Shown here piece after piece: positions 21,373-63,916 of a DNA stretch of 64,000 nt. Each line of letters begins with the position of its first letter. Position 1 is the stretch's first letter. The notes below the pieces were generated by a model. The model was not told the origin of the DNA, searched no databases, and saw only the letters and a list, made by a program, of their open reading frames with translations. The position numbers and the translations under genes are program-made. The DNA comes from Thermoanaerobaculia bacterium (GTDB taxonomy: Bacteria; Acidobacteriota; Thermoanaerobaculia; Multivoradales; UBA5704): positions 149,188 to 213,187 of the forward strand of contig DASYTJ010000087.1 in NCBI GenBank assembly GCA_036002325.1. The letters are read 5' to 3'.

Positions 21373-21479
21373 CTAGCACAAGGCGCCGGCCGGAATCGGG
21401 TAAGTTGTTGATTCAGAGGAACTAATCCAGGGATTACGACACCTGCCGCCGCCTCCGGCGGACGGTCTGACGGAGCCGG

Positions 21480-23863: not shown

Positions 23864-24172
23864 CTACCCTTGGGGGTCCGTTGCGCTCGTCGAGCTCGTG
23901 GGCGGAGGTTGGGGCGTCGACGTGGCGCTGGAACAGCCACCGGCGGGATCAATTACCGGACCACATTTTTGCATCGGAGGTGGGATGCCGCCCGGCTCCA
24001 CAGGCCCGCCGGTCCCCGGCCAGAGCTGAGCGATCCATTCCAAAGCTCTTTCGAACCAGCCAGGGCCGGTCGTCAGGTCCCTCCAGCCGTCGGCGTGAGC
24101 GGGCGCGGCGAGTGCGAGGACGGCCGCGAGGGCCAGTACGGCGGCGGCGCGCCGGATGCGTTGCAGGTCCAT
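23864..24172 (-). CDS. Small secreted hypothetical protein with a Pro/Ser/Thr-rich tail
   Basis: MDLQRIRRAAAVLALAAVLALAAPAHA|DG... has a signal peptide with an AHA-DG cleavage site. The ATG is preceded by AAGGAGAGGAGAG. Confidence 0.4.
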   Translation of the reverse strand: MDLQRIRRAAAVLALAAVLALAAPAHADGWRDLTTGPGWFERALEWIAQLWPGTGGPVEPGGIPPPMQKCGPVIDPAGGCSSATSTPQPPPTSSTSATDPQG

Positions 24173-24474
24173 CTCTCCTCTCCTTCTGACCGTGGGCCGG
24201 CCGGGAGCCGCCATGGCGCCGACGCCCGCGGCCGTAACAGCCTAGTGTGGCCAACGCTCTCCAGTGTGGCACGGGTGGAAGAATTTCGGGCGCAGGGCGT
24301 ACGAATCTCGTACGCTCACCGCCTCGCCGGCTCCGCTGGAGCATGACCATGAGAGTCGGCGCCGCGACGCCTACGGCAATCAATTCCGCTTCCAGTCGGC
24401 TGCGAAGCTGAAGGTGTTGAGGCCGGCAGGACTAAGGAGCCGTTGTAGGAACCAGGGCTCTTCGACGGGAGCTC

Positions 24475-25764
24475 TCAGTGCTCGTCGAGCTTCTTGCCGT
24501 CCTTCTTCAATTGGGGGTGCTGAAGGAAGGTGGGCTGATCCTCATCGATGACCGTGCGGACTTCGCTGAGGGGAATCGTGAACTTCTCCGGCTCGACCGG
24601 TATGTTGGTTTCAAGACTCTTGACCATGAAGTGGAGGCTGATCATGCGCTTGCCATCATCATCCAATCCCGTCAGGTAAATGTGATGAGGAAATGGATAG
24701 GTGCTGCCTTTGACGCGGAGATAGCGCGTAAAATCAACAACCCGAAAGACCTTACCTCCGGGCCGGACGTACTCGATCTTCGAGACGAGATCACGGTTCG
24801 GCAGGATCGTCACTCGGTAATAGAAGGGACGGCCTTGGAGATCCCCTCCCGGGAGGATCAACTTTCCTTCCTCGCCTTTCTTCACCACGCCTCGCGCCTC
24901 GCCGACCCGCGCTTGCCACCGCGTCTCGTCGGCGATGGCGTCGAGAGTCAACTCACAGGCCGGGCAGCTATCTCCCTCTGGGCTCAGGAAAGCCACCGGG
25001 AGATAAAGGGGATTCATGAAGGGCGCGGGAACCTGAGTTGGAGGCTCTCTGTAAAGCGAGAGTCTGGAATCGGCTTCGAACAGGAGCTGATAGCGCTCTC
25101 CGTCGTACGCCGATACGAGTCCTGAAGCCAGACCGAGCCGCGCGTCCGCCGTCGACCGCGAGCGGTACTTCTGGCCCTCCAGCCAATACTCGAACGCGCC
25201 TTCACCCGTTCGATGAGGGAAGTTGAGCCAGACTCCGGCCTCCAAGTGGGCGGCACGGAGGTTTTTATAAAAACCCCGCAGCCGGTCCAGCGTTCCCTGA
25301 TAGCGGCCGGCAAGCTCGCGGCTGCCCTCTTCTGGAAGGTAGAGGGGCTCGGGCTGGCGTGGGACCTGGGATCGCAAAGCCTTGTCGGCATTCAGCATTT
25401 GGTTCAGCTCGGACACCGAATACTCGCAAGGGACGCCGCCTCCTGCCGGTCCACAGTCGCAAGCTCCCCCGCCTCCCCCGGCTGTATCGTCGCAGACACT
25501 CGCACCCAAGAGGTTTCCACAGGCACAACGGAGAATCATGTAGCAGCTGACCGTCCCGCACGCCCCCCCCGTGTTCCAGCCCGAATCCGTATTCGCGAGA
25601 AGGGAGAGAGGCCTCAGACTTGTAGGAATGGCGAGGCAATCCGCCTCCGTAGGGTCGGTGCAGGTTGTCAGGGCTGTGTGGCACTGATAGGGGAGAGCCA
25701 GAACGGGAAGGAGTAAGAAAGCTGCCCCCAAAATGGTGGATTTCGCCCAGCGAGCTTTCGCCAT
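24475..25764 (-). CDS. Secreted Cys-rich hypothetical protein
   Basis: 429 aa with a signal peptide and an N-terminal Cys/Gly-rich segment (CGTVSCYMILRCACGNLLGASVCDDTAGGGGGACDCGPAGGGVPCEY). No confidently recognisable domain. Confidence 0.5.
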   Translation of the reverse strand: MAKARWAKSTILGAAFLLLPVLALPYQCHTALTTCTDPTEADCLAIPTSLRPLSLLANTDSGWNTGGACGTVSCYMILRCACGNLLGASVCDDTAGGGGGACDCGPAGGGVPCEYSVSELNQMLNADKALRSQVPRQPEPLYLPEEGSRELAGRYQGTLDRLRGFYKNLRAAHLEAGVWLNFPHRTGEGAFEYWLEGQKYRSRSTADARLGLASGLVSAYDGERYQLLFEADSRLSLYREPPTQVPAPFMNPLYLPVAFLSPEGDSCPACELTLDAIADETRWQARVGEARGVVKKGEEGKLILPGGDLQGRPFYYRVTILPNRDLVSKIEYVRPGGKVFRVVDFTRYLRVKGSTYPFPHHIYLTGLDDDGKRMISLHFMVKSLETNIPVEPEKFTIPLSEVRTVIDEDQPTFLQHPQLKKDGKKLDEH

Positions 25765-25982
25765 GGCTCATCTCCCTGTGATCAACAGAGGAAGCTTTGC
25801 GTGTTTCCACAACTTTGTCAAGTCTGTAATCGCCTGGGTAGTGCGCGGTTTTGAAATCGGGACCTCTTCCCCTCAACGGCCCCGTGGGCTAGCGTGATCC
25901 CAGGCGGAATGAACCGCCAAGCGGCCCCGGCACGGGACGGAACCCCGCACCGGAGCCTGACCCGGACAGGAGGACACGCCCC

Positions 25983-26399
25983 ATGCCCGAGCTAGCAGCA
26001 CAGTCTATCGCCTCAACCCGCATCCTGCCGCCGCCCGCCCGCTACCCCTACACCGGATGGGAGACGGCCTGCGTCTTCAGGGAGACGTTCCTTTCCTGGC
26101 TGACGCCGCCCGGAGCCGCCAACGCCTTCCGGACGGTCGGCAATCTGTTCTTCGACCTAATGCTGAATGCCGACGACTGGCCGATGCCCTCGGAGTCGCC
26201 TGTCCGGCGCGAGCTGCGCGCCGCCGCTCAGGATCTCCGTTTCGTCCAGGGCTGGCTGGCGACGGCCCTGGAGACGAACGACATGAAGCAGATGCACCCG
26301 GAGGACGCGTACTTCCTGCGGCTCGCGGGACGACTCGCCCCGCAGGTCGGCCGCATCGCCGCCACGATCGAAACCGCGCTCGGGGAGGAACTGCGATGA
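25983..26399 (+). CDS. Hypothetical protein (transposon cargo 1)
   Basis: 138 aa, preceded by CAGGAGGA about 9 nt upstream. Its stop overlaps the next ORF start (ATGA). Confidence 0.4.
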   Translation: MPELAAQSIASTRILPPPARYPYTGWETACVFRETFLSWLTPPGAANAFRTVGNLFFDLMLNADDWPMPSESPVRRELRAAAQDLRFVQGWLATALETNDMKQMHPEDAYFLRLAGRLAPQVGRIAATIETALGEELR

Positions 26400-26632
26400 G
26401 TTGGGCCAGCAAACCGAGCTACCCGCATGACGCCTTGAACACGCTTACGATACGGGCGACCGACCGCCAACTCGCGAACTGGACGATGGAAGCGAAGCGC
26501 ACCGGCAGGGCTCGCGGCGCCGCAATCGCCTACCTCGCGGATCTCGGCTGCACGTTTCTCCAGGCGTGGCGGGACACCAACTACGATTGGGCCTGCGCTA
26601 TGGAGCAAGGCCCGATCACGAAGCACGACTGA
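26396..26632 (+). CDS. Small ribbon-helix-helix-like protein (cargo 2)
   Basis: 78 aa. NTLTIRATDRQLANWTMEAKRTG-RARGAAIAYLADLG fits a beta-strand / helix / helix RHH layout. It is translationally coupled to cargo 1. Confidence 0.35.
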   Translation: MSWASKPSYPHDALNTLTIRATDRQLANWTMEAKRTGRARGAAIAYLADLGCTFLQAWRDTNYDWACAMEQGPITKHD

Positions 26633-27062
26633 TTCAGGGACGGGCGGCATCTTCGGGTGCCGCCCGTGTTACCATCGAAGCCATGGAACACGACCCCGCC
26701 ATCCGCCCGAAGCGCCCCCGCGACCCGTTCAAGGCGGCTCACGAGATCTTCCGGGAAGCTATCGGCGAGAAGCCGCGCACCGAACCCCGCCCCAAGAAGC
26801 GCCCTTCCTCAAAGAAGCCCGCCGGCAAGCCTGAGTCGAACCGTAACACGGCCTGACGTTTTTTGGCTCCCCGAGTGTCTTGAAAACCTGACTTAGGTGG
26901 TATAATCGCGCCGTAAAAGCAGGGCGGGGCCGCCCGCGTGGGGCGGGCGGTTCCCTAAAACTTGTGGCGCAGCTCCCTCGGACCGAGGGATGGAAGTCGT
27001 GGACGCCTTCCATCCTGCCAAAAATCACTGCTCCGAGTCAAGAGCCGGAAAGGAGCAGTACT

Positions 27063-27395
27063 ATGTCAGTTTCCTGGTTAGGCTATGACTTCGATGTCTA
27101 CGACCCCCTAACAACCACGTGGAACGACGTGGGCGGCGTCTACATTTTCGCCGGCACAAACCACCAGAACGAATGGGCTCCCCTGTACATTGGACAGGCG
27201 GACAGCTTCCACAATCGCATCCCATGCCATGAAAGGTGGGCCGAGGCGGCGCTGCTGGGGGCCACCCATGTTCACGCGATGACGGTTCCGCAGGCGGCCA
27301 ACCGGGCAAGGATCGAGCATGAATTGTGTTTGGCCTATCAGCCGCCTTTGAATACCCAGCTTCGTTCGTTGGCCGGCTTCCGTCGCGGGGCGTAA
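27063..27395 (+). CDS. GIY-YIG-like nuclease-domain protein (cargo)
   Basis: 110 aa. GVY...(14)...YIG, then R 8 residues later, then an IEHE..N signature. AGGAG lies 8 nt upstream. An AT-rich consensus promoter TTGAAA-N17-TATAAT sits at ~26879-26907 upstream. Confidence 0.45.
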   Translation: MSVSWLGYDFDVYDPLTTTWNDVGGVYIFAGTNHQNEWAPLYIGQADSFHNRIPCHERWAEAALLGATHVHAMTVPQAANRARIEHELCLAYQPPLNTQLRSLAGFRRGA

Positions 27396-27497
27396 TTCGG
27401 AAGTAGGTAAGCGTTTCCTGGAGCCGCTGAAGAGTCGCAAGCTCTCCGTCACTCTGCGGCTCCAGGCACAGTGCGCGCCGCCGCCAATACACGCGCA

Positions 27498-28454
27498 TTA
27501 CGCCGCCTCCCTCTGTTGTTTCTTGTATGGCCCGCGCTTCCTCCCGGTCACGGTATCGGGTAGAAGCGCGACCATTTCCTCAACACTCCACAGGTGCGCC
27601 GTCACCCCCGCCGCCATGGCCGGGGTGACGCGGAGGGAGCGGTGGATGCGCACGTAGTTGTAGTGGAACGTGAAAAGCCCGAACGCCGCGACGTGGTTCC
27701 GCAGCATCTTGGAGAAACCGTTCGTGAGGCGGGTGTAGCGGCGCATCATCATCCGCACCGTCAGGTTGCTCCGCTCCACTAGGGACGTGCTGATAGCGGA
27801 CTTGTCGGGATCTCCGGTGATGACCGCCTTCATCTGCCGGACGCACGGCTGCGGGCTGTAGCGGTGGTCGGGATCGGGCGGACCGGCCTTGAACTCCTTC
27901 ACGAGCTGCGCGAAGTCCACCTCGGAGCCAAACGCCGTTTCGACCGCTTCCAGGTACATGCGGTGTCCGTCCGTCACCAGCATAACGCGGTGCGCGAGCC
28001 GAGAGGCGAGGTCGCGCATGAATACCGTTGCATGCTCCGCGTCCCGGTGGCCGATGTGGAAGGCCGGGATCAGCTTCGACACCGGGTCAACGGCGGTGAA
28101 GGCCCACAGATCGCCGTAACCGAGGACGCCAACGTTCTCGGGCCGGACATTCTTCGCCTTGCAGCGGCAGAACGCCCAAATCTCGTCCACCTCCAGGCGG
28201 CGGCACTGGAGGCTCCGCAGGTTCTCGTCCATGTAGCGGATGCACTCTTCTCCCAGGTCCAAGCCGAGCTTTGCTACCGCATCGTAGGAGACACCCACCA
28301 GACGGGACGTGGCGCGGAGAGAATTCCCCTCGCACAGAGCCGCAGCGATGGCGGCGCGCTTTGCCGGTTTGAGGACGTTCGCCACGGCCAGAATTTTACA
28401 GCTAAGCCTATGAAAAATCAAGGACTTAGGCCGAAAAATCGGGAGGATTTTCAA
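27498..28454 (-). CDS. IS1-family transposase (fused InsA-InsB type)
   Basis: 318 aa. The N-terminal HTH resembles InsA (RAAIAAALCEGNSLRATSRLVGVSYDAVAKL). The DDE region resembles InsB (RLEVDEIWAFCRCKAKNV...LVTDGHRMYLEAVETAF). The gene starts 43 bp inside the right IR (IR inner end 28497). Confidence 0.85.
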   Translation of the reverse strand: MKILPIFRPKSLIFHRLSCKILAVANVLKPAKRAAIAAALCEGNSLRATSRLVGVSYDAVAKLGLDLGEECIRYMDENLRSLQCRRLEVDEIWAFCRCKAKNVRPENVGVLGYGDLWAFTAVDPVSKLIPAFHIGHRDAEHATVFMRDLASRLAHRVMLVTDGHRMYLEAVETAFGSEVDFAQLVKEFKAGPPDPDHRYSPQPCVRQMKAVITGDPDKSAISTSLVERSNLTVRMMMRRYTRLTNGFSKMLRNHVAAFGLFTFHYNYVRIHRSLRVTPAMAAGVTAHLWSVEEMVALLPDTVTGRKRGPYKKQQREAA

Positions 28455-28624
28455 GGCTTCTTCTTGGCAAAAAGCGTGCCGAGATCGGTGCTTTAAATTT
28501 CAAAACCGCGCACTACCATCGCCTGCCCCCGTACGCCGCCGTACGAATCTCGTCTATCTCGCGGCCGCCGCTCTCCCGCGATTCGTACGTGCGCTAGACT
28601 TTGCCCCATCCGAGGAAGGCCGCC

Positions 28625-29596
28625 ATGGCTGTCAGCGAACCCATAGCTCCGATCTCCGCCGACGATCCGAACCGCGATCTCGGTTTCGGCGCCGTCGTCG
28701 TCCGCGAGAGCCGCAAGCGGCTGCTCAACCGGGACGGCAGCTTCAACGTCGTGCGCGAGGGCTTAAGCTTCTTCCAGACGCTCAGCCCCTACCACTTCCT
28801 CCTCACCACGTCCTGGCCGCGCTTTCTCGGGCTCATCGTCCTCTTCTTCCTGGTGACCAATACCGTCTTCGGGCTAGCCTACTTCGCCTGCGGCCCGGGA
28901 CAGATCGCGGGCTCGAATGCGACTCGCCTTCATAGTCAGTTCCTCGAGGACTTCTTCTTCAGCGTGCAGACCTTCGCCACCATCGGCTATGGGGGGATGC
29001 ATCCGGTCGGGCTGGCGGCAAACCTGCTGGTCACCCTGGAGTCGCTGGTGGGACTGTTGGGCTTCGCCCTCGCCACCGGCATCCTCTTCGCCCGCTTCTC
29101 GCAGCCGACGGCGAAGATCCTCTTCAGCAAGAACGCCATCATCGCTCCATACCGCGGCATCACCGCCTTCGAGTTCCGCATCGCCAACGCGCGGAGCAAC
29201 GAGATGATCCAGGTCGAGGCCCGCGTGCTGCTCAGCCGTTTCAGGCCCGACGGCGGCGGCAATCGCGATTTCATCCCTCTCAAGCTGGAGCGCGACAAGG
29301 TGGTGTTCTTCCCGCTCGCCTGGACCATCGTCCATCCCATCGACGAGGAGAGCCCGCTCTGGGGGGCCACTCGCGAGGACTTGAAGAATTGGGACGCGGA
29401 GTTCCTGGTGCTGCTCTCCGGGATCGACGAGACTTTCTCGCAGACGGTCCACACCCGCTCGTCCTACAAGGCCAGCGAGATCATCTGGGGCGCCCGCTTC
29501 GCGAACCTCTTCAACTCCCCGAAGCCGGACGGAACCCTGTCCATCGACGTCGGCCGGCTGCATCAGGTCGAGAAGGTGTTGCCGCCGGCGAGGTGA
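28625..29596 (+). CDS. Inward-rectifier-type (KirBac-like) potassium channel
   Basis: Two TM helices flank a pore loop with the TIGYG selectivity filter, plus a Kir-type cytoplasmic domain. ATG 28625 has GAGGAAGG upstream; an alternative ATG lies at 28601. Confidence 0.8.
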   Translation: MAVSEPIAPISADDPNRDLGFGAVVVRESRKRLLNRDGSFNVVREGLSFFQTLSPYHFLLTTSWPRFLGLIVLFFLVTNTVFGLAYFACGPGQIAGSNATRLHSQFLEDFFFSVQTFATIGYGGMHPVGLAANLLVTLESLVGLLGFALATGILFARFSQPTAKILFSKNAIIAPYRGITAFEFRIANARSNEMIQVEARVLLSRFRPDGGGNRDFIPLKLERDKVVFFPLAWTIVHPIDEESPLWGATREDLKNWDAEFLVLLSGIDETFSQTVHTRSSYKASEIIWGARFANLFNSPKPDGTLSIDVGRLHQVEKVLPPAR

Positions 29597-29603
29597 CCCC
29601 AGC

Positions 29604-30506
29604 TCACTCCACGCCGAGATCGACGTCGCGGTCCAGCGCCGCCAGCACGGCCTTGTTCTCGCGCCAGTCGGGCTCCAGGCGGACGTTGAGGTCGAGATAG
29701 ACGCGGCGCTCGAGATACTGCTCGAGGTCGAGGCGGGCGGCGGTGCCGATCGCCTTGATCATCTGGCCCTGGCGGCCGACGACGATCTTCTTCTGGCCCG
29801 GGCGTTCGACGAGGATGGAGGCGTAGATGCGGATGAGGTCCTTCTCGTCGTCGTCTTCCCAGCGCTCGATGACCACCGCCGTCGTGAAGGGGAGCTCCTC
29901 GCTGGTCAGCTCGAGCACCTTCTCGCGAATGCGCTCGGCGGCCAGGAACCGCTCGGGGTGGATGGTCAGCAGCTCCGGATCGAACAGGGGCTCCCCCTCG
30001 GGGAGCAGGTTCCAGAGAATGTCGAGCAACCGGTCGCAGTTGTCGCCCTTGGCGGCGCTGATCGGCACGATCTCCGTAAACACGCCGGTCTTGGCGTACT
30101 GCGCGATACGCGGCAGGATCTCGGGCTTCTTGATGCGGTCGATCTTGTTGAGCGCGAGCACCCGCGGACCCTCGGCCTTGCCGACCAGATCGAGGGTATA
30201 GGCGTCGCCCGAGCCGAACCTCTCGGAGACGTCCACCAGCAGGCAGGTGACATCGGCCTCGTTCATGGCGTCCAGGGCGTAACGCACCATCTGCCGGTTC
30301 AAGCGGTGGAGGGGCCGGTGAATGCCGGGGGTGTCGTAGAACACCATCTGGCCGTGCTCGTCCGTGAGGATGCCGACGATGCGGTGCCGGGTGGTCTGCG
30401 GCTTGTTGGAGACGATGGCCAGCTTCTCCTGCAGAAGATGGTTCATCAGGGTCGACTTGCCGGCGTTGGGCCGGCCGACCAGGGCGATGGTGCCGGACTT
30501 GGCCAT
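29604..30506 (-). CDS. era: GTPase Era
   Basis: GRPNAGKST P-loop, DTPG, NKID motifs and a KH domain. 300 aa. Confidence 0.9.
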   Translation of the reverse strand: MAKSGTIALVGRPNAGKSTLMNHLLQEKLAIVSNKPQTTRHRIVGILTDEHGQMVFYDTPGIHRPLHRLNRQMVRYALDAMNEADVTCLLVDVSERFGSGDAYTLDLVGKAEGPRVLALNKIDRIKKPEILPRIAQYAKTGVFTEIVPISAAKGDNCDRLLDILWNLLPEGEPLFDPELLTIHPERFLAAERIREKVLELTSEELPFTTAVVIERWEDDDEKDLIRIYASILVERPGQKKIVVGRQGQMIKAIGTAARLDLEQYLERRVYLDLNVRLEPDWRENKAVLAALDRDVDLGVE

Positions 30507-35628: not shown

Positions 35629-36489
35629 TCATTTCTTCCCGTAGTCGTAGAACCCCCGCCCGCTCTTCTTGCCCAGGCGGCCGGCGAAGACCATCTGCTT
35701 GAGGAGCGGCGGCGGCGCGAAACGCTTTTCACGGTACTCCTCGAACATGATGTTGGCGATGTAGTAGGTGGTGTCGAGGCCCACGAAGTCGAGCAGGGTG
35801 AACGGGCCCATGGGATAGCCGCAGCCGAGCTGCATCCCCTTGTCGATGTCCTCGACGCTGCCCACCCCCTCCTCCAGGGCGCGGACGGCGTCCAGCAGGT
35901 ACGGCACCAGCAGGCGGTTGACCACGAAGCCCGAGTTGTCACGGCAGGCGATGGGCTCCTTGCCGAGCGAGCGGGCGAACTCGAAGGCGCGGTCGAAGGT
36001 CTCGTTCGAGGTCAGGATGGTGCGCACCACCTCGACCAGCTTCATCACCGGCACCGGGTTGAAGAAGTGCAGGCCCACGAACCTGTCCGGCCGCCGGGTG
36101 AACATGGCCATCTGGGTGATGGTGAGGGACGACGTGTTGCTGGCGAAGATCGCGTCCTCTTTGACCACCTCGTCGAGAGCGCCGAAGGTCTTCCGCTTCT
36201 CTTCCAGGTTCTCGACGATGGCCTCCACCACGACGTCGCAGTCGGCGAGGGCGGCGAGGTCCACGGTGCCGGACAGGCGGCCGACCGCCTCGTCGCGGAC
36301 CGCCGCGTCGAGCTTGCCTTTCTCCACCGCCTTGGCGAGGGAGCCGTGGATCTTCTCGACACCCTTTTCCACCAGCTCCTCGGAGACCTCCCGCACCACC
36401 GTCTCGTAACCCGCGCGCGCGGCGACCTCGGCGATGCCCGAGCCCATCAGGCCGCAGCCGAGGACTCCCACCTTCTTGATCTTCTTCAT
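35629..36489 (-). CDS. hbd: 3-hydroxybutyryl-CoA / 3-hydroxyacyl-CoA dehydrogenase
   Basis: VGVLGCGLMGSGIA Rossmann motif with 3HCDH N- and C-terminal domains. 286 aa. Confidence 0.85.
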   Translation of the reverse strand: MKKIKKVGVLGCGLMGSGIAEVAARAGYETVVREVSEELVEKGVEKIHGSLAKAVEKGKLDAAVRDEAVGRLSGTVDLAALADCDVVVEAIVENLEEKRKTFGALDEVVKEDAIFASNTSSLTITQMAMFTRRPDRFVGLHFFNPVPVMKLVEVVRTILTSNETFDRAFEFARSLGKEPIACRDNSGFVVNRLLVPYLLDAVRALEEGVGSVEDIDKGMQLGCGYPMGPFTLLDFVGLDTTYYIANIMFEEYREKRFAPPPLLKQMVFAGRLGKKSGRGFYDYGKK

Positions 36490-36550
36490 CGAACCCTCCT
36501 ATCTGGATCTCAATTCGTGATAGTTCAGTTGCTCGTTGGACTTCGGCGGG

Positions 36551-36716
36551 CATGCCCTCCGAAGCCTCACCCCCTGTCCCCCTCTCCCTGACGGGCGAGG
36601 GGGGACGCCCAGGAGGGCGATTGCCCAAAAAGTAGGCCCCCCTATCGGCAAGGAGGTTGTGGATCGTCCCCCCTCGCCCGTCAGGGAGAGGGGGACAGGG
36701 GGTGAGGCTTCGAAGC
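36551..36716. repeat. Long-armed palindromic repeat element, copy A (~50-bp arms, ~60-bp loop)
   Basis: Left arm CCCTCCGAAGCCTCACCCCCTGTCCCCCTCTCCCTGACGGGCGAGGGGGGA (36555-36605) and its reverse complement (36666-36714). A near-identical element lies at 62155-62352, with homologous loop sequences (GATTGCCnAAAAAGGTAGGCC). Confidence 0.8.
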
Positions 36717-36750
36717 GTAAACCCGTCCGCAGTCCCGATCCTACTGAATC

Positions 36751-37191
36751 CTAACTGCCATGTTGTGTCTCCAGGATCTCCCTTCCCTCTTCTCCCGCGA
36801 GCCGCGCCAGCTTCAGCGCCGCGGCGCCGGGCACCGCGAAGGGCAGGCGCTCGGCCCATTCCACCACCTTCACGCCGGGCCCGGCCAGCAGCTCCTCCAG
36901 GCCCAGCGCGGCGGCCTCCCCGGAGTCCAGCCGGTAGAGATCGACATGCACCAGACGCCCGCCCTTTCCCCGATGTTCGCGGATGAGGTTGAACGTGGGC
37001 GACTGCACCTCGCGGGGATCGATCCCCAGGCCTTCGCCGATTCCTCGTGTCAAGACCGTCTTACCGCTGCCCAGATCGCCCGAGAGCAGGAGGACGCCGT
37101 CCGGCGACAGCTCCCGCGCGAGGTCCATCCCCAGAGCGCGGGTCTCCTCTTCGCTGCGGGTAAGCCAGCGCCTCAAGGGCGCGCTCCTAAC
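36751..37191 (-). CDS. tsaE: tRNA threonylcarbamoyladenosine biosynthesis protein TsaE
   Basis: P-loop GDLGSGKT, SPTFNLIREH, and VHVDLYRL. A probable GTG start at 37191 abuts the nnr stop. The ORF-track start is 37230. Confidence 0.75.
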   Translation of the reverse strand, partial: VRSAPLRRWLTRSEEETRALGMDLARELSPDGVLLLSGDLGSGKTVLTRGIGEGLGIDPREVQSPTFNLIREHRGKGGRLVHVDLYRLDSGEAAALGLEELLAGPGVKVVEWAERLPFAVPGAAALKLARLAGEEGREILETQHGS

Positions 37192-38812
37192 GCAGCCGCG
37201 GCCGCCGTCCGTGGCCGCGCTCGGGGGCATGCTCGTGGCCTGCCTCCGTCTCCTCCTCGCCGGCGGTCTTGAGCTCGGCGAAGGCGGCAGGCAGGATTTC
37301 GATCAGATCGCCGGCGGCGAGGGGGATTTCGCCCAGACGGCCCGCGGCGAGATCGCCCGCCAAGCCATGGAGGTAAACGGCGGCGACTGTGGCGTCGAGA
37401 GCGTCGAGGCCTTGCGCCAGCAGGCCGGCGATCAGGCCGGTCAGCACGTCGCCGGTGCCGCCGGTCGCCATCCCCGGATTGCCCGTGGGGTTGACGAACA
37501 CCGCCGTGCCGGAGGCGACCAGGGTGAGGTGCCCCTTGAGCACGACGATGGCACCCGTCTCCTCGGCCGCGCCGCGAGCCGCCGCCACCCGGTCTTCCTG
37601 GATCTGCGAGGTCGAGATGCCGAGCAGGCGCCCCAGCTCGCCGGGATGCGGCGTCAGGATGGTCTCCGCCCGCCGGCCGGCCAGCTCGCCGGCGCGGCCG
37701 GCGAAGGCGTTGAGGCCGTCGGCGTCGAGCACCAGCGGCAGCGGACACTCGAGGGCGATGCGGCGAATGGCTGCCGCCGTGGCCGGCTCCTGTCCCAGGC
37801 CCGGTCCCATGGCGAGCACCGCCTTGCCCTCGGCCGCATCGAGCAGGACGTCCGCGGCCCGCTCGGCGATCTGGCCCGCGGCGCCCGCCGGCAGCCCCAA
37901 GGTCATCGACTCGACGGAGCCGAGGTCCACCGTCTGCAGAATCGGCTCCGGCACCGCCGCCGTCACCAGACCGGCGCCCGCGCGCACGGCGGCGCGCGCG
38001 GCGAGGATGGCGGCACCCGCTTTGCCGGGAGATCCCGCCGCGATCAGCGCGTGCCCATAGTCCCCCTTGTGCGAGCCGGGCTCGCGCTCCGGCAGCAGGT
38101 CGGCGAGCTCCTCGCCCATCAGCAGGTGGAGGTCTCCCGTCTCCTCTTCCACCTCCTCCACCAACCGCGGCGGAATCCCCAGATCCGTCACCACCATCTC
38201 GCCCACCGCGTCCGCCGCCGGCGGGAAGACGTGCGCCACTTTGGGAGCGGCAAAGGTCACCGTGAGGTCGGCCTGGACGTGCGGGCCGATCGGCCGCGAC
38301 TGGCTGCCCGCGAGGCCGCTCGGCAGGTCCACGGCCACACAGGGCGCCGGTAAGGTGTTGATGGCTTCCACGACCTGCGCGAACAGCCCCTCCAGAGGCC
38401 GGCCGAGCCCCGTTCCGAACAGCGCGTCGACCACCAGGTCGCACTCGGCCGCCGCCTCGACCGCCGGCGCCAGGCCCTCCTCGGAAGAGACCTCGAGGAT
38501 GGGAAGCTCGGCCTGGCGGCAGATCCCGAGCTGCACCGCGGCGTCGCCGGAGAGCTCACGGCCGCCGGTAACCAGAAAGACCCGCACCTCCCAGCCGCGC
38601 ACCGCGAGGTGGCGCGCCACCGCCAGACCGTCGCCGCCGTTGTTGCCCGGCCCGCAGAAGACCGCCGCCGACTCGGCGTCGCCGAAAGCGCGGCCCATGG
38701 CCTCAACCACTCCGATGGCGGCGTTTTCCATCAGCACGAGGCTGGGCACGCCGAGATCCTCGATGGCGGCGCGGTCGACCTCGCGCATCGCTTCAGCGGA
38801 GAGGATCCTCAC
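37187..38812 (-). CDS. nnr: Bifunctional NAD(P)H-hydrate repair enzyme Nnr (epimerase + ADP-dependent dehydratase)
   Basis: YjeF-N (GPGNNGGDGL) and YjeF-C/carbohydrate kinase regions (GSPGKAGAAILAARAA, GMATGGTGDVLTG). The start is GTG ~38812 or ATG 38842. Confidence 0.85.
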   Translation of the reverse strand: MRILSAEAMREVDRAAIEDLGVPSLVLMENAAIGVVEAMGRAFGDAESAAVFCGPGNNGGDGLAVARHLAVRGWEVRVFLVTGGRELSGDAAVQLGICRQAELPILEVSSEEGLAPAVEAAAECDLVVDALFGTGLGRPLEGLFAQVVEAINTLPAPCVAVDLPSGLAGSQSRPIGPHVQADLTVTFAAPKVAHVFPPAADAVGEMVVTDLGIPPRLVEEVEEETGDLHLLMGEELADLLPEREPGSHKGDYGHALIAAGSPGKAGAAILAARAAVRAGAGLVTAAVPEPILQTVDLGSVESMTLGLPAGAAGQIAERAADVLLDAAEGKAVLAMGPGLGQEPATAAAIRRIALECPLPLVLDADGLNAFAGRAGELAGRRAETILTPHPGELGRLLGISTSQIQEDRVAAARGAAEETGAIVVLKGHLTLVASGTAVFVNPTGNPGMATGGTGDVLTGLIAGLLAQGLDALDATVAAVYLHGLAGDLAAGRLGEIPLAAGDLIEILPAAFAELKTAGEEETEAGHEHAPERGHGRRPRLR

Positions 38813-49922: not shown

Positions 49923-52433
49923 TTACGGGACCTTGTACCAAGCGCTGGTGTCGCCGCTCTCGAAGCCATCGGCAAAAATCAGGCTGGTCCGGACGCGCAC
50001 GATCTGGGCCACCGACGGTACGCCGCCGCCATTGAGGATGAACAGCATGTAGTGGCCTGGCGGTACCAGGTTCGCGCTGGCGGGTGCCGTTACCGACAAC
50101 CCCCCTGTCGCCTGCGAGAAGTTGAGCCGATGGATCCGCTGGTTTTGATTGAATGCATGCGTCGTTGACGAAAGCCGGATCAAGCTCACGCCGGCGATGC
50201 TCTGCGGCGTCAGCGTGCCTACGAAGAAGGTCTGTCCATAAAGGATCTGCTGCGGAGCCGCGGTGATCGTCGGACGCGCCCCGTTGAAAAGGTAGGGAGG
50301 CGAGTAGATCTCGATGTTCGGCTGTGGGCTTCCGCCGATTGGGTCGGGATGCCCGCCGCCGGCGATGAGCACGCGCCCGTCCGGCAGAAGCAGAGCATTT
50401 GAATGGTAGCCCCGGTAGCGGGTGTAACCGGCCATGATGGACCAAGTCTCCGTGGCCGGATTCCACAGCTCCGCGTACAGCATCGATCCCGCCGGGTTAT
50501 CGAATCCGGGAAAGCTGCTGCCGCCGGTCACCAGCACCTTGCCATCGGGCAGCAGCGTAGCGTTGAGCTGCCGCCGCCCGGCGGACAGCGGGGCCACGGT
50601 GCGCCAGGCAGGGATTGGAGCGGTCAGATCGATCACTTCGGCGCTAGCGCTAGGCAAAATCGTCGGAGTGGCATTGGGATCCGGCTCGCGCGGATTCCCG
50701 CCCACGATGAGCACCTTGCCGTCGTCGTACATTACCGAAGAGCCATAATCACGATAGGTCAGACTGCTGCCGCCAACATCGGTCCAAGCTCCCGTCCCTG
50801 AGGTGTCGAGGTACCGCGCCATCTGTTGCGGACCCGCGGCAAAAACCTTGCCGTTCGGCGCCTGGTAGAGAAATGGATAGAAGTCCGCCCAGTCCGGATA
50901 ATTGCCCTGCATAGCTGTGCTGAGATTCCGCCAAGTTGCGGTCGCCGGGTGCCATACCTGCGGCACGACGTTCACGTTGCCATAGCCCGTCGTCGTACCT
51001 GCCAAGACCAGGACGTCACCGTTGGCGAGAGTGGTGTTCGTGGGATACCAACGGCCCGCATTCATCGGGCTGAGCAATTGCCATGAATTGGCGACAGGGT
51101 CATAAAGGCTGGCCTTGGTCTCACCCACGCCGTCGTTGATGTGTCCGCCGGTGACCAGCAATTTGCCGTCCTCCGTGAAGGAGTGCCCGCTGCAAAAGAG
51201 ATCGTATCCCGGGAGCGCCAGAGTGGTGACGGTCTGTGTCGCCGGATCCCAGAGACGCGGATCGCCATCCCAGCCGTTCGTGTCATGATGACGATCCCAT
51301 AGGATCACTTTGCCGCTGGGAAGAAGATGCATGTGGATGGGCACAACCGGCAACGACAGGACCGGTCCCCACTGACCGCTCACCGCAGGGGTGTCGTCAT
51401 CCACGATGTTGATCGTCGCCGTCTGCGGGTTGCCCAGCGTTGCGCCCGTAGGAGCGCTCAGTGATACTGAGAAGCTCTCGTTGGCTTCGGGGGACGCATC
51501 GTTGAGAATGGGCACGCTGAAGACCTTGCGGGTTTCGCCGGCAACGAAAGTGAGCGTTCCCGAAGTCGCGGCGTAGTCGGACCCGGCACCGGCAGCGCCG
51601 TTGGCCGTGGAGTACTGCACCATCACGGTCCCGCTGCTGCCACCGCTGCGGTCGGCCACGACTACGGCAGGTCCGGCTTCTCCTGTCGTGTAGGAGGCGG
51701 AGCTCAGACTGAGGACCTGCGGTGGTTGACCGATTTGAATCGAGATGAACTCCGCGTCGCTGAGCGCCGTCGCCCCGGCCTGAGTGGCCCTGAAGAGGAT
51801 GAAGCCGTATGTGCCGGCGACGGGAGATGGCCAATAGAACCTGCCGTTAGCCCCGTCGAAGGTTGCCCCTGGCGGCAGGTTCTGAGCGCCGAGCGTAGTG
51901 CCATCCCCGTCCGGATCGGAAGCGGAAACGAAGAATTCAAGCGGCTGGCCCGTCGTTCCAGTCCTGTCTCCGATGGGATTTAGGATAGGAGAGCGGTTTG
52001 AGGTCGAGCTCGCGGGCTGGGTGGCGGAAGAGACCTCAGCACCCCCAGGATTGAACAGGCGAGTTACCCAGAGAAAGCCGGAATAGTCGAAGACATCCAT
52101 GTTTTGGACAATCACGAGTTGCCCGGACGAATTGGTCCCGCCGCTGTTGTCGATCGAGAAGATCCGCTCACACCATTGGCCGCTGGCGCAGAAGAAACTG
52201 CCCGTCTCCAACAGCCAGACTTTGAGCGTGGAGACACCCGTTTGCAGCCCGCTATATTGAAAACACAGCACCGGCGAATAGCTAGCGAGCGGCGTATTTC
52301 TTGGTAGGACCGTCGGAACGTCGCAGAATCCGATACTGCCTTGAGCCAGCAACGGCGACCCCGCGATGATGGAGCAGAGACACACTGCACCCCTGATCAA
52401 CGCCTGCGCTGTTCGGCTGCGGTCCGCGATCAT
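49923..52433 (-). CDS. Secreted galactose-oxidase/glyoxal-oxidase-like protein with Kelch repeats, DUF1929 and a Calx-beta domain
   Basis: Calx-beta signature ([39 protein letters not shown]), Kelch-like repeats, and a C-terminal Ig-like DUF1929 ([33 protein letters not shown]). Start at MIADRS or upstream MYRSHS (52466). Confidence 0.6.
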
Positions 52434-52611
52434 CGAGATCTCTCCAATCGAATGCGATCGATACACAGCATACGCTCAATTTCAATGACAAGGAAGGAAA
52501 GAGAGGGATGGCTATATCCACAGGAAGGACGGCGCACCCCTCCGGCGGGTGTAACGTCAATTCGCCTGGTCGCGCGGCAAGACTCGGAGCACGTCGAGGA
52601 CGTGGGCCAAC

Positions 52612-53694: not shown

Positions 53695-53797
53695 AAGGCT
53701 CCTCCATCCTCTCCCGTTTCAGCCATGCAGCCGTTTTATAGAAGATTGCGCATCCAAAGAGATCACGGTAAATTGATCGCCTAGAGGAGGAACATTC

Positions 53798-60148: not shown

Positions 60149-60482
60149 GATGGGAGGGGCCGCGGCCCGGCGCAATCGTAGCACGGGGTAGCCGATCCCC
60201 AGGACCAGTCACATCGGCGGTTGCCGCGCCGCCGGCCCTCACCACCCCAACCCCTCCTCTCCCACCGCACACCCTTCCGCCGGGAGAGGAGGGGCTCTGA
60301 AAAAACAAACTTCATCCGTCTCCCTCCTCTCCCGGAGGGCGGGCGTGAGGTGGGAGAGGAGGGCCGGGGAGGTGAGGGGCCCGGCGGCGGGATAGCGCTA
60401 GAGGAGATCGACGACGGCCGAATCGGGCCAAAGGCAGCTCGGCCGGCCGCCGGGATACACTACCCGCTCAGGGAACCACACG

Positions 60483-61842: not shown

Positions 61843-62112
61843 TTACCGCTGCCGCCGGACGATGCGCTCTAGAGCCCGTCGGTCGAGCCGCACCTTGGCG
61901 ACCGGCTGGCCGTCGCGCAGCAGCACCGGGACGACGTCCGTATAGCGGGCCCGCAGCTCCGGCTCGGCGTCGACGTCGCGAGGCGACCAGGTCAGGCCGA
62001 ACGAAGGGAGAATTTCGTCGAGCAGCCCGGCCATCTCATCGCAGAGGTGGCAGCCTTCGCGGGTGACGAGCTCGTAGGAAGCGGATGGGATCGTGCGGTG
62101 GAACAGTTTCAT
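61843..62112 (-). CDS. Glutaredoxin-like (thioredoxin-fold, CxxC) small protein
   Basis: 89 aa with a CHLC active-site-like motif near the N-terminus. DUF836/glutaredoxin-2 type. Confidence 0.5.
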   Translation of the reverse strand: MKLFHRTIPSASYELVTREGCHLCDEMAGLLDEILPSFGLTWSPRDVDAEPELRARYTDVVPVLLRDGQPVAKVRLDRRALERIVRRQR

Positions 62113-62154
62113 TCCGGGCGTGGTGGACCGTAGCGGTTCAGGCTGGCTGTGAAT

Positions 62155-62352
62155 TTCGGACCGGTATGCCCTCCGAAGCCCTCACCCCCTGTCCCCCTCT
62201 CCCTGACGGGCGAGGGGGGACCCGTCATAACCCGATTGCCGAAAAAAGGTAGCCTCGACCTCGGCGAGATCCCTTCGCATGCGTTCCCCCTCGCCCGTCA
62301 GGGAGAGGGGGACAGGGGGTGAGGCTTCGGAGGGCATGCGGGTCCGCAGTCT
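62155..62352. repeat. Long-armed palindromic repeat element, copy B
   Basis: Arms TCGGACCGGTATGCCCTCCGAAGCCCTCACCCCCTGTCCCCCTCTCCCTGACGGGCGAGGGGGGA and its reverse complement, with a single-base bulge. The loop is homologous to copy A. Confidence 0.8.
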
Positions 62353-62377
62353 TCGATCGAGCTGAACCACTACCTGC

Positions 62378-63916
62378 TCACTCCCACTCGATCGTCGCCG
62401 GAGGCTTGCTCGTCACGTCGTAGACGACCCGGTTGACCCCCTTCACCTCGTTGACGATGCGATTGGCGACGCGGCCGAGGAGCTCGTAGGGCAGCGGGCT
62501 CCAGTCGGCGGTCATGAAGTCGGCGGTCTCCACGGCGCGCAGGGCGACGACGTTCTCGTAGGTGCGGTAATCGCCCATCACGCCGACGCTCTTGACCGGG
62601 AGGAGGACGGCGAAGGCCTGACTCGTCTTGTCGTACCAGCCGCTCTCGCGCAGCTCGTGGAGAAAGATCGCGTCGGCTTCCTGGAGCAGCGCCACCCGTT
62701 CGGGCGTGACCTCGCCCAGGATGCGCACGGCGAGGCCGGGACCGGGGAAGGGATGCCGGGTGAGGATCTGCTCGGGAAGCCCCAGCTCGCGGCCGAGCTG
62801 GCGCACCTCGTCCTTGAACAGGAAGCGGAGCGGCTCGACCAGCTCGAAGCCCAGCTCCTCGGGCAGCCCGCCGACGTTGTGGTGGGATTTGATGACCGCC
62901 GAGGGCCCTTTGACCGAGACCGACTCGATGACGTCCGGGTAGAGGGTGCCCTGGGCGAGGTAGTCGGCGCCTTGAATCTTCTTCGCCTCGTCCTTGAAGA
63001 CGTCGATGAACACGCGGCCGATCGTCTTCCGCTTCTGCTCCGGATCCTCGATCCCCGCGAGCTCGGAGAGGAACCGCCGGCTCGCGTCGACCGCCAGCAC
63101 CGGGATGCCGAGCCCGTCGTGCAGGCTGTGCATCACCTGCGCCGCCTCGTCCTTCCTCAGTACACCGGTGTCCACGAAGATCGGCGTCGAGCGCTCGCCC
63201 ACGGCGCGCTGCAGCAGGGCCGCGACCACCGAGGAGTCGACGCCTCCCGAGAGGGCGCAGATCACTCTCCCCTCCCCTACCCGCTCGCGCACGGTGGCCG
63301 TCGCCTCCTCCAGGTAGGAGGCCATCCGCCAATCGCCGCGGGCGTCGCAGATGCCATACAGGAAGTTGCGGAGGATCTCGCCGCCGGAGACGGTGTGCGA
63401 GACCTCCGGATGGAACTGAATGCCATAGAGGCGGCGTTCCGGAGCTTCAAAGGCGACCACGCCTGCGTTGCCAGTGGTGGCCGTCGCGCGGAAGCCGGGC
63501 GGCAGGTGGCGCAAGCGGTCGCCGTGGCTCATCCAGACCGTCTCGCACGCCGCGAGCCCCTCGAACAGCCGGCCGGACTCGGCGATCGAGATCTCGGCCC
63601 GGCCGTACTCGCGGCGGCTCGAGCCCTCCACGCCGCCGCCGAGCTCGTGCGCCATCACCTGCATGCCGTAGCAGATCCCCAGCACCGGCACGCCGAGCCG
63701 GAACAGCGCGGCGTCGGCGCTGGGCGCGCCGGGCTCGTAGACGCTCTGCGGGCCGCCGGAGAGGATCAGGCCGAGCGGCTGCCGGCGGCGGATCTCCTCC
63801 AGGGGCAGGTCGAACGGATGGACCTCGCAGTAGACCCGGTTCTCGCGCACCCGGCGGGCGATCAACTGGGTGAACTGGCTGCCGAAGTCGAGGATGAGGA
63901 CAATTTGGTGGTTCAT
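62378..63916 (-). CDS. guaA: GMP synthase (glutamine-hydrolysing)
   Basis: GATase domain ([20 protein letters not shown]) and ATP-PPase SGGVDSSV motif; C-terminus ...PPATIEWE. 512 aa. Confidence 0.9.

What the first reader, a model, noticed from the sequence alone, without database searches (positions are those of the whole stretch)
36551..36716. Two copies of a ~170-200-bp long-armed palindromic repeat element (near-perfect 50-65-bp arms, homologous loops) in intergenic gaps of same-strand gene pairs
Copy A lies between tsaE and hbd, and copy B (62155-62352) between guaA and the glutaredoxin-like gene. They share arms (CCTCACCCCCTGTCCCCCTCTCCCTGACGGGCGAGGGGGGA and its complement) and loop motifs (GATTGCCnAAAAAGGTAGGCC ... 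TCGGCnAG). Both sit just downstream of a stop codon and upstream of the next gene on the same strand. The size and structure fit a MITE or REP-like mobile palindrome. Alternatively it could be a structured RNA or terminator-insulator element, since the ~50-bp GC-rich stem would be an extremely stable hairpin. A third, related C/T-rich double-hairpin (CCCTCCTCTCCC / GGGAGAGGAGGG, twice) lies at 60236-60365 upstream of lgt.
Basis: seen in the sequence. Interest (0 to 1): 0.55.

Follow-up and report, generated by a model that had tools for sequence, protein, structure and literature searches.

The report
BoxC/triplex-motif doublet repeat in Thermoanaerobaculia
The two long palindromes are real copies of a high-copy intergenic repeat of an uncultured acidobacterial lineage. 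Each arm carries the already known, widespread BoxC / "intrastrand triplex" motif, so this is a new family of a known kind of bacterial repeat and not a new type of element.

Summary
Copy A (36521-36753) and copy B (62130-62373) are end-to-end palindromes. They fill the tsaE->hbd and guaA->glutaredoxin-like gaps; the genes are on the minus strand. A 41-nt core is identical in all four arms.

That core is the known BoxC / PIT / TM motif (Holder 2015): CCCTC[T/G]CCC-loop-GGGAGAGGG-loop-GGGGTGAGG. It includes the same G.A mismatch as the commonest E. coli type. The third element (60236-60379) is another TM doublet of a different subfamily.

Almost all are Thermoanaerobaculia MAGs, with dozens of copies in one MAG, many at contig ends.

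The closest relatives have empty sites: about 22 nt between tsaE and hbd, and guaA overlapping glrx by 4 nt. So both copies are insertions into tight gene pairs.

Across copies and between orthologous copies, the TM core and the adjacent CTGCCCTYCGAAG are nearly invariant, while the outer arms decay or are deleted. Arm variants do not covary. There is no orientation or gene-context bias, no consistent target duplication, no Rfam match and no canonical terminator.

Best reading: a non-autonomous, REPIN/MITE-like dispersed repeat built from an inverted TM pair, with its mobiliser unknown. I rate it a new member of a known kind, of moderate interest.

The parts
36521..36753 (.). Copy A, whole palindromic element (233 bp) between tsaE and hbd
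   Evidence: Inverted symmetry from TAGTTCAG to CTGAATCCTA. DNA fold -93.8 kcal/mol, z = -15.5. The orthologous gap in relatives is about 22-60 nt with no element.
36565..36604 (+). Copy A, left BoxC/TM motif: head CCTCACCCCC, loop TGT, stem CCCCCTCTCCC, loop TGAC, stem GGGCGAGGGGG
   Evidence: Identical in all four arms. Same three-block architecture as E. coli TM_ECO.
36605..36667 (.). Copy A centre: non-palindromic and conserved across the family (GATTGCCCAAAAAGTAGGCCCCCCTATCGGCAAGG)
   Evidence: Family consensus TTGCCGAAAAAGGTAGCCTCCTATCGGCAA has about 1-1.9 bits per position. On the gene strand it contains a weak hairpin plus a T5 run.
36668..36707 (-). Copy A, right BoxC/TM motif (reverse complement of the left one)
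62130..62373 (.). Copy B, whole palindromic element (244 bp) between guaA and the Glrx-like gene, bracketed by GTAGCGGTTCAG ... CTGAACCACTAC
   Evidence: The guaA and glrx genes overlap by 4 nt in the 91%-identical relative, and in the 93% relative the guaA stop abuts a 5'-shortened glrx.
62180..62219 (+). Copy B, left BoxC/TM motif
62285..62324 (-). Copy B, right BoxC/TM motif
60236..60379 (.). Third element: TM doublet of another subfamily. Heads CCCTCACC / GGTGAGGGG face outward, stems are CCCCTCCTCTCCC / GGGAGAGGAGGGG, loops are 18 nt. It lies in the divergent gap between an 82-aa ORF and lgt.
   Evidence: The corresponding gap is 102 nt in the relative carrying P0002, against 298 nt here.
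36751..37230 (-). tsaE. Its stop codon TAG (36751-36753) lies in the terminal GCAGTTAG|GATTCAG of copy A.
   Evidence: Pfam TsaE 2.5e-33. The C-terminus differs from relatives L216 and L217, and a remnant of the old 3' end is visible downstream of the element.
35629..36489 (-). hbd (3-hydroxyacyl-CoA dehydrogenase), downstream of copy A
   Evidence: Pfam 3HCDH_N 2.8e-65
62378..63916 (-). guaA, upstream of copy B
   Evidence: Pfam GATase / GMP_synt_C. The best homologues are from Thermoanaerobaculia.
61843..62112 (-). Glutaredoxin-like gene, downstream of copy B
   Evidence: Pfam Glrx-like 4.9e-13. The N-terminus MKLFHR..PSASYEL is shared with relatives L300 and L298.

Best explanation
Copies A and B belong to a high-copy, non-coding, intergenic repeat family of Thermoanaerobaculia (Acidobacteriota). 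Each element is an inverted, heads-outward pair of the known BoxC / PIT / TM 'intrastrand triplex' motif. The pair is extended by a conserved CGGnCTGCCCTYCGAAG inner arm, a conserved non-palindromic centre of about 65 nt, and decaying outer arms of about 57 nt ending in (GTAG)..GGTYCAG. SHOWN: the elements are dispersed insertions. In this genome they entered two tightly packed, probably co-transcribed gene pairs. Copy A replaced the last codons of tsaE and supplies its stop codon. Copy B separated guaA from a gene that abuts or overlaps it in relatives. The two arms are maintained as sequence, not as base pairs. INFERRED: the whole palindrome is the unit of spread and is moved in trans by an enzyme not encoded in the element. 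I favour a single-strand, hairpin-recognising, REPIN-like (HUH-type) mechanism over DDE cut-and-paste. The reasons are that the conserved part is an internal imperfect hairpin with a short conserved head, the termini are the least conserved part, and no target duplication is seen. The near-invariance of the TM core comes from recognition by that enzyme or a host protein, from gene conversion among the many copies, or from both. As a side effect, read-through transcripts carry a GC-rich stem of about 100 bp with a few small bulges. That stem is likely to be cut by RNase III or to uncouple expression of the flanking genes.
For: Identity of the arms with BoxC/TM: compare the sequence with Table 1 of PMC4666352. 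The E. coli motif is CCCTCGCCCC-TTT-GGGGAGAGGG-TTA-GGGTGAGGGG. Here it is CCCCCTCGCCC-GTCA-GGGAGAGGGGG-ACA-GGGGGTGAGG, with the same G.A mismatch.

Of the 80 listed, 61 come from one MAG, and many copies sit at contig ends. About 50 complete doublets were recovered.

Insertion: empty orthologous sites at both loci.

Non-coding: the centre length varies from 62 to 68 nt.

Core constraint: information content is near the maximum over the inner arm plus TM and near zero in the outer arms. In the orthologous copies L145/L186, the TM arms differ only by one substitution and 1-nt run-length changes, while the outer arms are about 67-70% identical and the flanking genes 88-92%. Outer arms are deleted in one partner of L152/L215 and of L166/L173.

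Sequence conservation rather than pairing: left/right concordance at the T/C site is 0.42, against 0.42 expected.

No context or orientation bias. Genuine GTAG-headed REPINs sit in the element's loop and are polymorphic between orthologues, which fits an exposed single-stranded loop.
Against: No mobilising gene was found. No TM-bracketed ORF occurs in 94 loci plus the window, and 10 window ORFs showed no transposase. Exact insertion boundaries, and so the presence or absence of a target duplication, could not be fixed, because the closest empty sites are only 86-93% identical at the protein level. A TA lies within 10 nt of 9 of 24 well-preserved termini, so a TA duplication is not excluded. 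Orthologous copies shared by different species show that many copies are old, so current mobility is unproven. Conservation of the core could reflect a host function and have nothing to do with transposition. Holder et al. found no link of the E. coli motif to mobile elements.
Confidence: 0.6

Rival explanations
1. It is a classical MITE: a deletion derivative of a DDE-transposase insertion sequence. It would be moved by cut-and-paste through its terminal inverted repeats (..GGTYCAG) and would make a short target duplication, possibly TA.
For: It has long terminal inverted repeats, small size, many dispersed copies and empty orthologous sites. About 40% of arms keep GGTYCAG at a fixed -56 to -58 from the core. 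Both window copies and L125 have TA/TAG just outside that motif.
Against: The termini are the least conserved part and the internal TM hairpins the most conserved, which is the opposite of what is expected when a transposase binds the ends. The TA sits at variable distance and in only 9 of 24 arms. No IS with these ends was found in the 94 loci, in plasmids or in phages.
Confidence: 0.15
2. It is primarily a host-functional element kept by selection. It could act at the RNA level (mRNA-stabilising or RNase III processing hairpin, attenuator, insulator between genes). Or it could act at the DNA level (binding site for a nucleoid or replication protein, or a non-B DNA triplex/cruciform/G4 switch).
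For: The TM core is strongly conserved across paralogues and between orthologous copies of different species, while neighbouring non-coding DNA diverges. The motif, including its mismatch, is conserved from E. coli to Acidobacteria. The stem is extremely stable. A weak hairpin plus T5 run lies in the centre on the gene strand of both window copies.
Against: Closest relatives do without it at both loci. There is no orientation bias relative to read-in genes (4 versus 3). There is no preference for 3' ends: divergent about 8, convergent about 6, tandem about 9. The arms show no compensatory change. No U-tract follows the long stem. PIT/TM motifs showed no promoter or terminator activity and no stable triplex in vivo in E. 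coli.
Confidence: 0.2
3. It is a structured non-coding RNA gene or cis-regulatory RNA with a conserved loop.
For: The centre is conserved and the predicted fold is very stable.
Against: There is no Rfam hit at gathering thresholds and only sub-threshold generic miRNA-hairpin hits. The element occurs in both orientations relative to transcription and in divergent promoter regions. There is no covariation. The loop is repeatedly interrupted by nested REPIN insertions without loss of the element.
Confidence: 0.03

Closest known systems
BoxC / PIT / TM_ECO intrastrand-triplex motif of E. coli and more than 260 other prokaryotes (Bachellier et al. 1990s; Hoyne et al. 2000; Holder et al. 2015, PMC4666352). 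Kaplan et al. 2016 (PMC5100583) read the same motif as a G-quadruplex/hairpin switch.
   Same: The three blocks (CCCTC[T/G]CCC, GGGAGAGGG, GGGTGAGG), 3-4-nt loops and G.A 'mm' mismatch are the same. It is strictly intergenic and multi-copy, occurs as inverted pairs, and has unstable flanks.
   Different: In the family copies recovered here, which were found by searching for this core, the motif occurs almost always as a doublet, with few solo or truncated copies. The heads face outward, whereas the five E. coli pairs face inward; both types occur in viral contigs, 4 versus 10. The pair sits inside a 175-245-bp composite with a conserved 65-nt centre, a conserved CTGCCCTYCGAAG inner arm and outer arms. 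Copy number per genome appears higher: dozens in one fragmented MAG against 23 in MG1655.
REPINs / BIMEs (REP doublets mobilised by RAYT HUH transposases; Bertels & Rainey 2011, PMC3116915, listed but not read; the comparison rests on my own knowledge)
   Same: It is an inverted pair of a short imperfect hairpin with a conserved flanking head. The doublet is the repeating unit, forms a long hairpin, is intergenic and shows no evident target duplication.
   Different: The head is CCTCACC/GGTGAGG and not GT[AG]G. The arms are longer. No RAYT was found next to the motif. True GTAG-headed REPINs of two types are separate elements in these genomes and insert into this element's loop.
Correia (CREE/NEMIS) elements of Neisseria and ERIC/IRU of enterobacteria (own knowledge)
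   Same: These are palindromic intergenic repeats of 100-250 bp that are co-transcribed with neighbouring genes. They form long RNA hairpins; Correia hairpins are RNase III substrates.
   Different: Those families have well-conserved termini, Correia elements make a TA duplication, and neither contains a BoxC/TM motif. None of these functional properties was tested here.

Membership tests
BoxC / PIT / TM intrastrand-triplex motif | Three consecutive blocks: a pyrimidine block, a complementary purine block, and a third purine block that mirrors the second. Loops are 1-6 nt. | tested here: met
   CCCCCTCGCCC-GTCA-GGGAGAGGGGG-ACA-GGGGGTGAGG is read directly. The block-by-block match to Table 1 of PMC4666352 is.
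BoxC / PIT / TM intrastrand-triplex motif | Conserved block sequences CCCTC[T/G]CCC / GGGAGAGGG / GGGTGAGGG, including the frequent mismatched ('mm') form | tested here: met
   All four arms carry the G (that is, C on the other strand) 'mm' variant.
BoxC / PIT / TM intrastrand-triplex motif | Intergenic, multi-copy, and sometimes in inverted pairs | tested here: met
   The pairs here are heads-out, while E. coli pairs are heads-in.
BoxC / PIT / TM intrastrand-triplex motif | Forms an intrastrand triplex in vitro | not testable with these tools
   This needs CD/NMR. Only the triad register was checked by eye.
MITE (DDE-transposase dependent) | Terminal inverted repeats, under about 500 bp, non-coding, many dispersed copies | tested here: met
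MITE (DDE-transposase dependent) | Target-site duplication of fixed length flanking each copy | tested here: inconclusive
   No consistent direct repeat was found. TA lies within 10 nt of 9 of 24 termini. Empty sites are too diverged to fix the boundaries.
MITE (DDE-transposase dependent) | Termini shared with an autonomous IS, and termini the best-conserved part | tested here: not met
   Termini are the least conserved part. No bracketed ORF was found in 94 loci plus the window. There are no matches beyond the TM part in plasmids or phages. The genome sampling is incomplete.
REP / REPIN (RAYT-associated) | Short imperfect palindrome preceded by a conserved GT[AG]G head | tested here: not met
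   The head of the TM arm is CCTCACC / GGTGAGG. GTAG occurs only at the outermost tips of copy B and L125, and as G(A)TAG..CTAC in the centre.
REP / REPIN (RAYT-associated) | Inverted doublet that forms a hairpin and behaves as the repeating unit | tested here: met
   Found as doublets in about 50 of about 54 internal occurrences.
REP / REPIN (RAYT-associated) | A RAYT (Y1 HUH transposase) gene flanked by the repeat in the same genome | not tested
   Only 8-kb loci around the repeats were available.
Intrinsic (Rho-independent) terminator | GC-rich hairpin followed at once by a U-tract, downstream of genes in a fixed orientation | tested here: not met
   No T-run follows the long stem. There is only a weak internal hairpin plus T5. 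Copies occur in both orientations and in divergent gaps.
Curated structured RNA family (Rfam) | Match to a covariance model at the gathering score, and covariation supporting the pairs | tested here: not met
   0 hits at gathering. Only sub-threshold miRNA-hairpin hits appeared. Arm variants are independent.

The most novel reading that the evidence does not exclude
BoxC/TM motifs, whose origin and mode of spread have been unexplained since the 1990s, may be the recognition hairpins of a REPIN-like replicative system. The Thermoanaerobaculia doublets would then be an active or recently active population moved by an unrecognised hairpin-specific (HUH/RAYT-like) enzyme. Three observations point this way: an invariant internal hairpin plus head, GTAG...CTAC at the tips of the best-preserved copies, and a G(A)TAG..CTAC loop that repeatedly hosts genuine REPINs. 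The near-perfect conservation of the core, including its mismatch, from E. coli to Acidobacteria would then reflect enzyme recognition and not triplex function.
Probability: 0.12. Interest if true: 0.65.

Novelty: new member of a known kind. Interest (0 to 1): 0.33.

Why it matters
The main result is a clarification. A striking stem of about 100 bp between housekeeping genes is a lineage-specific family of an already described and very widespread repeat motif (BoxC/PIT/TM). It is not a new regulatory RNA or a new class of element.

It has some value beyond that. It extends the motif, down to its conserved mismatch, to an uncultured acidobacterial class. In the MAGs recovered by the core search it is found in dozens of copies and almost always as a doublet.

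It also gives clean natural comparisons: empty versus filled operon junctions, orthologous copies with an invariant core and decaying arms, and nested REPINs. These could be used to ask what recognises or mobilises these motifs.

There is a practical point for metagenomics too. These elements break short-read assemblies: many copies sit at contig ends.

Tried and rejected
(1) Rfam at gathering score on the whole window and at E<=1 on copy A. Only sub-threshold generic hairpin (miRNA) hits appeared. tRNA/tmRNA search found none.

(2) Looked for a mobiliser. There is no '+ ... -' TM-bracketed ORF at 300-3500 bp in 94 loci plus the window; every such pair was simply two neighbouring elements. Pfam on 10 ORFs from the lower-GC parts of the window found no transposase.

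(3) Target-site duplication. Flanks of arms with a clear GGTYCAG terminus show no consistent repeat. Empty sites from relatives (L216, L217, L299) are too diverged to place the junction to the base.

(4) Compensatory change between arms: none.

(5) Orientation and gene-context bias: none.

(6) Terminator reading: only a weak internal hairpin plus T5.

(7) Plasmid and phage collections: only the 45-nt TM part matches, on two cyanobacterial plasmids.

(8) The exact-protein look-up of TsaE failed, because its start is called differently in the source. The hbd look-up identified the source contig.

(9) L299 at first suggested that 53 extra nt belong to insert B. This was rejected, because the Glrx N-terminus encoded there is ancestral.

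(10) Coding potential of the small ORFs inside the elements was rejected, because the centre length varies from 62 to 68 nt.

Full report
OBSERVATION

The two palindromes are real and larger than reported. The repeat finder gives arms 36547-36607 / 36665-36725 (61 nt, 92% complementary) and 62180-62221 / 62283-62324 (42 nt, 98%), plus cross-copy matches of 59 nt at 98%. A 26-mer from the arm occurs four times in the window, against 0.00 expected. Aligning both copies on both strands shows 41 invariant bases in every arm, CCTCACCCCCTGTCCCCCTCTCCCTGACGGGCGAGGGGG. Weaker symmetry runs out to (G)TAG..GGTTCAG / CTGAACC..CTA(C). Copy A is therefore 36521-36753 and copy B is 62130-62373.

Predicted folds are extreme. 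As RNA they are -187.5 and -181.5 kcal/mol (z = -15.0 and -12.2). As DNA, copy A is -93.8 kcal/mol (z = -15.5).

The order is nnr-tsaE-[A]-hbd-phoH and guaA-[B]-glrx-like.

The window comes from JGI metagenome 3300036861, contig Ga0376049_0000077, 144.8 kb. GuaA's best homologues are from Thermoanaerobaculia, Acidobacteriota.

WHAT THE ARMS ARE

The blocks were conserved and the flanks unrelated. A literature search identified it as the BoxC repeat of E. coli. It was re-described as the PIT element and then as the 'TM' intrastrand-triplex motif (Holder et al. 2015, PMC4666352). Kaplan et al. 2016 read it as a G-quadruplex/hairpin switch.

The commonest E. coli form is CCCTCGCCCC-TTT-GGGGAGAGGG-TTA-GGGTGAGGGG. 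The G-rich strand of our arm is CCCCCTCGCCC-GTCA-GGGAGAGGGGG-ACA-GGGGGTGAGG. It has the same three blocks, the same loop sizes and the same G.A mismatch ('mm' type).

E. coli MG1655 has 23 copies, five of them as inverted pairs. The motif is reported from more than 260 genomes. According to that paper it is always intergenic and shows no promoter or terminator activity. It forms a triplex in vitro but not detectably in vivo, is associated with local instability, and has no known link to mobile elements.

The third element (60236-60379) is another inverted TM pair with longer stems (CCCCTCCTCTCCC / GGGAGAGGAGGGG) and 18-nt loops. All three window elements therefore belong to one motif class.

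FAMILY AND DISTRIBUTION

Of the 80 listed, 61 are from one MAG (Thermoanaerobaculia MAG097, JBIOVX01). The rest are from three other Thermoanaerobaculia/Acidobacteriota MAGs, plus one solo motif in a Myxococcales MAG.

There are 39 pairs exact in both arms, including the two window copies. About 50 doublets are found when up to 3 mismatches are allowed. Of the 61 unpaired exact matches, 45 lie within about 250 nt of a locus end; most of these appear to be contig ends, so the palindrome appears to break short-read assemblies. Most internal 'single' matches have a slightly diverged partner arm. A full copy also lies in a 1.5-Mb contig (L171), so the structure is not an assembly artefact.

ANATOMY

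Conservation across copies is sharply zoned.
- It is near maximal from CGGnCTGCCCTYCGAAG through the TM motif to GACG on both sides.
- It is moderate in the centre. The centre is not palindromic and marks the element's orientation. Its consensus is CTGCGAAGGGtTTTGCCGAAAAAGGTAGCCTCCTATCGGCAAGACcGGCTGTGAATCGTC.
- It is close to background in the outer 57 nt. About 40% of arms keep GGTYCAG at -56 to -58 from the 26-mer, and subfamilies share further outer-arm sequence.

Centre length varies from 62 to 68 nt, which excludes coding.

Nine exact-pair copies have 100-111-nt centres. Seven of them carry a nested, GTAG-headed REPIN-like doublet of one of two types. The types are GTAGGGTGCGCTGTGCGCACC... 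and GTAGGGGCGGGGCTTGTCCCCGCCCC.... The insert sits where the intact centre reads G(A)TAG-GAGG-CTAC.

TESTS OF FUNCTION-LEVEL READINGS

(a) Pairing versus sequence. At the polymorphic arm positions the two arms of a copy vary independently. At -19 (T/C), concordance is 0.42 against 0.42 expected. Within-copy arm identity barely exceeds between-copy identity: 0.741 versus 0.712 in the inner zone, and 0.547 versus 0.537 in the outer zone against a baseline of about 0.52. The arms are conserved as sequences, not as a stem.

(b) Context. Copies lie between convergent (about 6), divergent (about 8) and tandem (about 9) genes. In tandem contexts the centre points either way, 4 versus 3.

(c) No Rfam family reaches threshold.

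(d) No U-tract follows the long stem. Only a weak hairpin plus T5 lies in the centre on the gene strand of both window copies.

These results argue against a structured RNA gene or a dedicated terminator.

INSERTION

The nearest relatives that keep tsaE-hbd synteny are L216 (hbd 87% identical) and L217 (86%). They have about 22 and about 60 nt between the genes and no TM motif. Comparison with the window shows that the old tsaE 3' end and the hbd ribosome-binding region (ATCCAGATAGGAGGG) survive downstream of the element. The present tsaE stop codon TAG (36751-36753) lies in the element terminus GCAGTTAG|GATTCAG.

For guaA-glrx, the 91%-identical relative has the two genes overlapping by 4 nt. 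In the 93% relative (L299) the guaA stop abuts a 5'-shortened glrx. The Glrx N-terminus MKLFHR..PSASYEL is ancestral, so the insert is 62113-62377 (265 nt). In that relative the gap matching the third element is 102 nt, against 298 nt here.

These are dispersed insertions.

AGE AND CONSTRAINT

Three orthologous pairs of elements exist among the fetched loci.

In L145/L186 the flanking DNA, largely coding, is 88-92% identical. The two inner-arm-plus-TM segments of 57-58 nt each differ by one substitution plus 1-nt run-length changes. The outer arms and the left part of the centre are only about 67-70% identical.

In L152/L215 and L166/L173, one partner lacks an entire outer arm (56 and 51 nt). 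The 51-nt segment is flanked by an ACCGCTC direct repeat. L173 carries a nested REPIN that L166 lacks.

Many copies therefore predate speciation. The core is held constant by selection, by enzyme or protein recognition, or by gene conversion, and its surroundings are unstable, as Holder et al. reported for E. coli.

MECHANISM (INFERENCE)

Three features resemble IS200/IS605 ends and REP/REPIN systems more than DDE-type MITEs, where the transposase-bound termini are the conserved part (established knowledge of those families). They are an invariant internal imperfect hairpin with a short conserved head, poorly conserved termini, and no visible target duplication.

I therefore favour spread of the whole palindrome by a trans-acting enzyme that recognises a hairpin in single-stranded DNA. 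No such enzyme was found, and a TA duplication is not excluded. The repeated occupation of the loop by true REPINs fits the loop being exposed as single-stranded DNA, but does not prove it.

For the host, the likely consequence is a GC-rich RNA stem of about 100 bp, interrupted only by a few small bulges, inside two formerly compact transcription units. This was not tested.

COMPARISON AND NOVELTY

The arm motif meets every testable defining feature of BoxC/PIT/TM. The composite differs from the E. coli pairs in several ways. The heads face outward; both arrangements occur elsewhere, with 10 heads-in and 4 heads-out among viral-contig pairs. It has a conserved 65-nt centre, a conserved inner arm and outer arms. 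Copy number also appears higher. Outside the TM part it matches nothing in plasmids or phages. I found no paper on such repeats in Thermoanaerobaculia.

It is a new family of a known kind of repeat. It is not a new kind of element.

Noticed in passing
L154, L167, L173, L176, L177, L196, L203 (type 1); L169, L194 (type 2); compare window 36620-36650: GTAG-headed REPIN-like doublets are nested in the centre of family copies. The two types are GTAGGGTGCGCTGTGCGCACC...GGTGCGCACAGCGCACCCTAC and GTAGGGGCGGGGCTTGTCCCCGCCCC.... They sit exactly where the intact centre reads G(A)TAG-GAGG-CTAC. The insert is polymorphic between orthologous copies: L173 is filled and L166 is empty. The loop looks like a recurrent target for a RAYT-type system.
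   Followed up: partly
L152 vs L215; L166 vs L173: At orthologous copies in different MAGs, a whole outer arm (56 nt and 51 nt) is present in one and absent in the other. The 51-nt segment is flanked by an ACCGCTC direct repeat. The TM core is untouched in both cases.
   Followed up: partly
L298 4187-4751; L300 3436-3870 (orthologous to window about 62113-62377): In two other relatives the same guaA-glrx junction holds different inserted genes in place of the repeat. L298 carries a nucleotidyltransferase/HepT-like toxin-antitoxin pair, and L300 carries a nucleotidyltransferase gene alone. The junction is a recurrent insertion point.
   Followed up: no
L299 1783-1893: In the closest relative (GuaA 93% identical) the Glrx-like gene lacks about 9 N-terminal codons. 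It starts at a GTG that overlaps the guaA stop (GTGA).
   Followed up: partly
L201 about 6280-6560; L196 about 3060-3390: These are hybrid doublets. One arm is of the window's subfamily. The other has a different TM hairpin: the CCTCCTCTCCC type, like the third window element, or CCCCCCTCTCCAGC..GCTGGAGAGGGGG. This suggests recombination or arm exchange between subfamilies.
   Followed up: no
window 21442-21570 and 21589-21815: A non-coding stretch upstream of recO holds two repeat features. The RecO domains map to the part of the ORF at 20610 to about 21360. One feature is a 44-nt inverted repeat (82% complementary). The other is about 10 degenerate tandem copies of a 21-nt unit, CCGTTGCACCGTGCGAGGGAG.
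   Followed up: partly
window 53989-54077 and 54674-54762: An 89-nt direct repeat at 90% identity. The second copy is the 3' end of an MFS transporter gene (54674-56269, minus strand), so the first looks like a duplicated gene-end fragment.
   Followed up: no
window about 24000-30000 and 50000-54000: These stretches have lower G+C (0.62-0.64, against about 0.68-0.70 elsewhere). Several of their ORFs have no Pfam hit, and one encodes an 847-aa Kelch/galactose-oxidase-like/Calx-beta protein (49923-52466). They may be acquired DNA.
   Followed up: partly
L193 about 2030-2440 (Myxococcales UBA1203): This is the only non-acidobacterial hit among the 80 loci listed. It is a solo copy of the identical 26-mer, inside a cluster of other, different TM-like motifs with an AT-rich spacer.
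   Followed up: no
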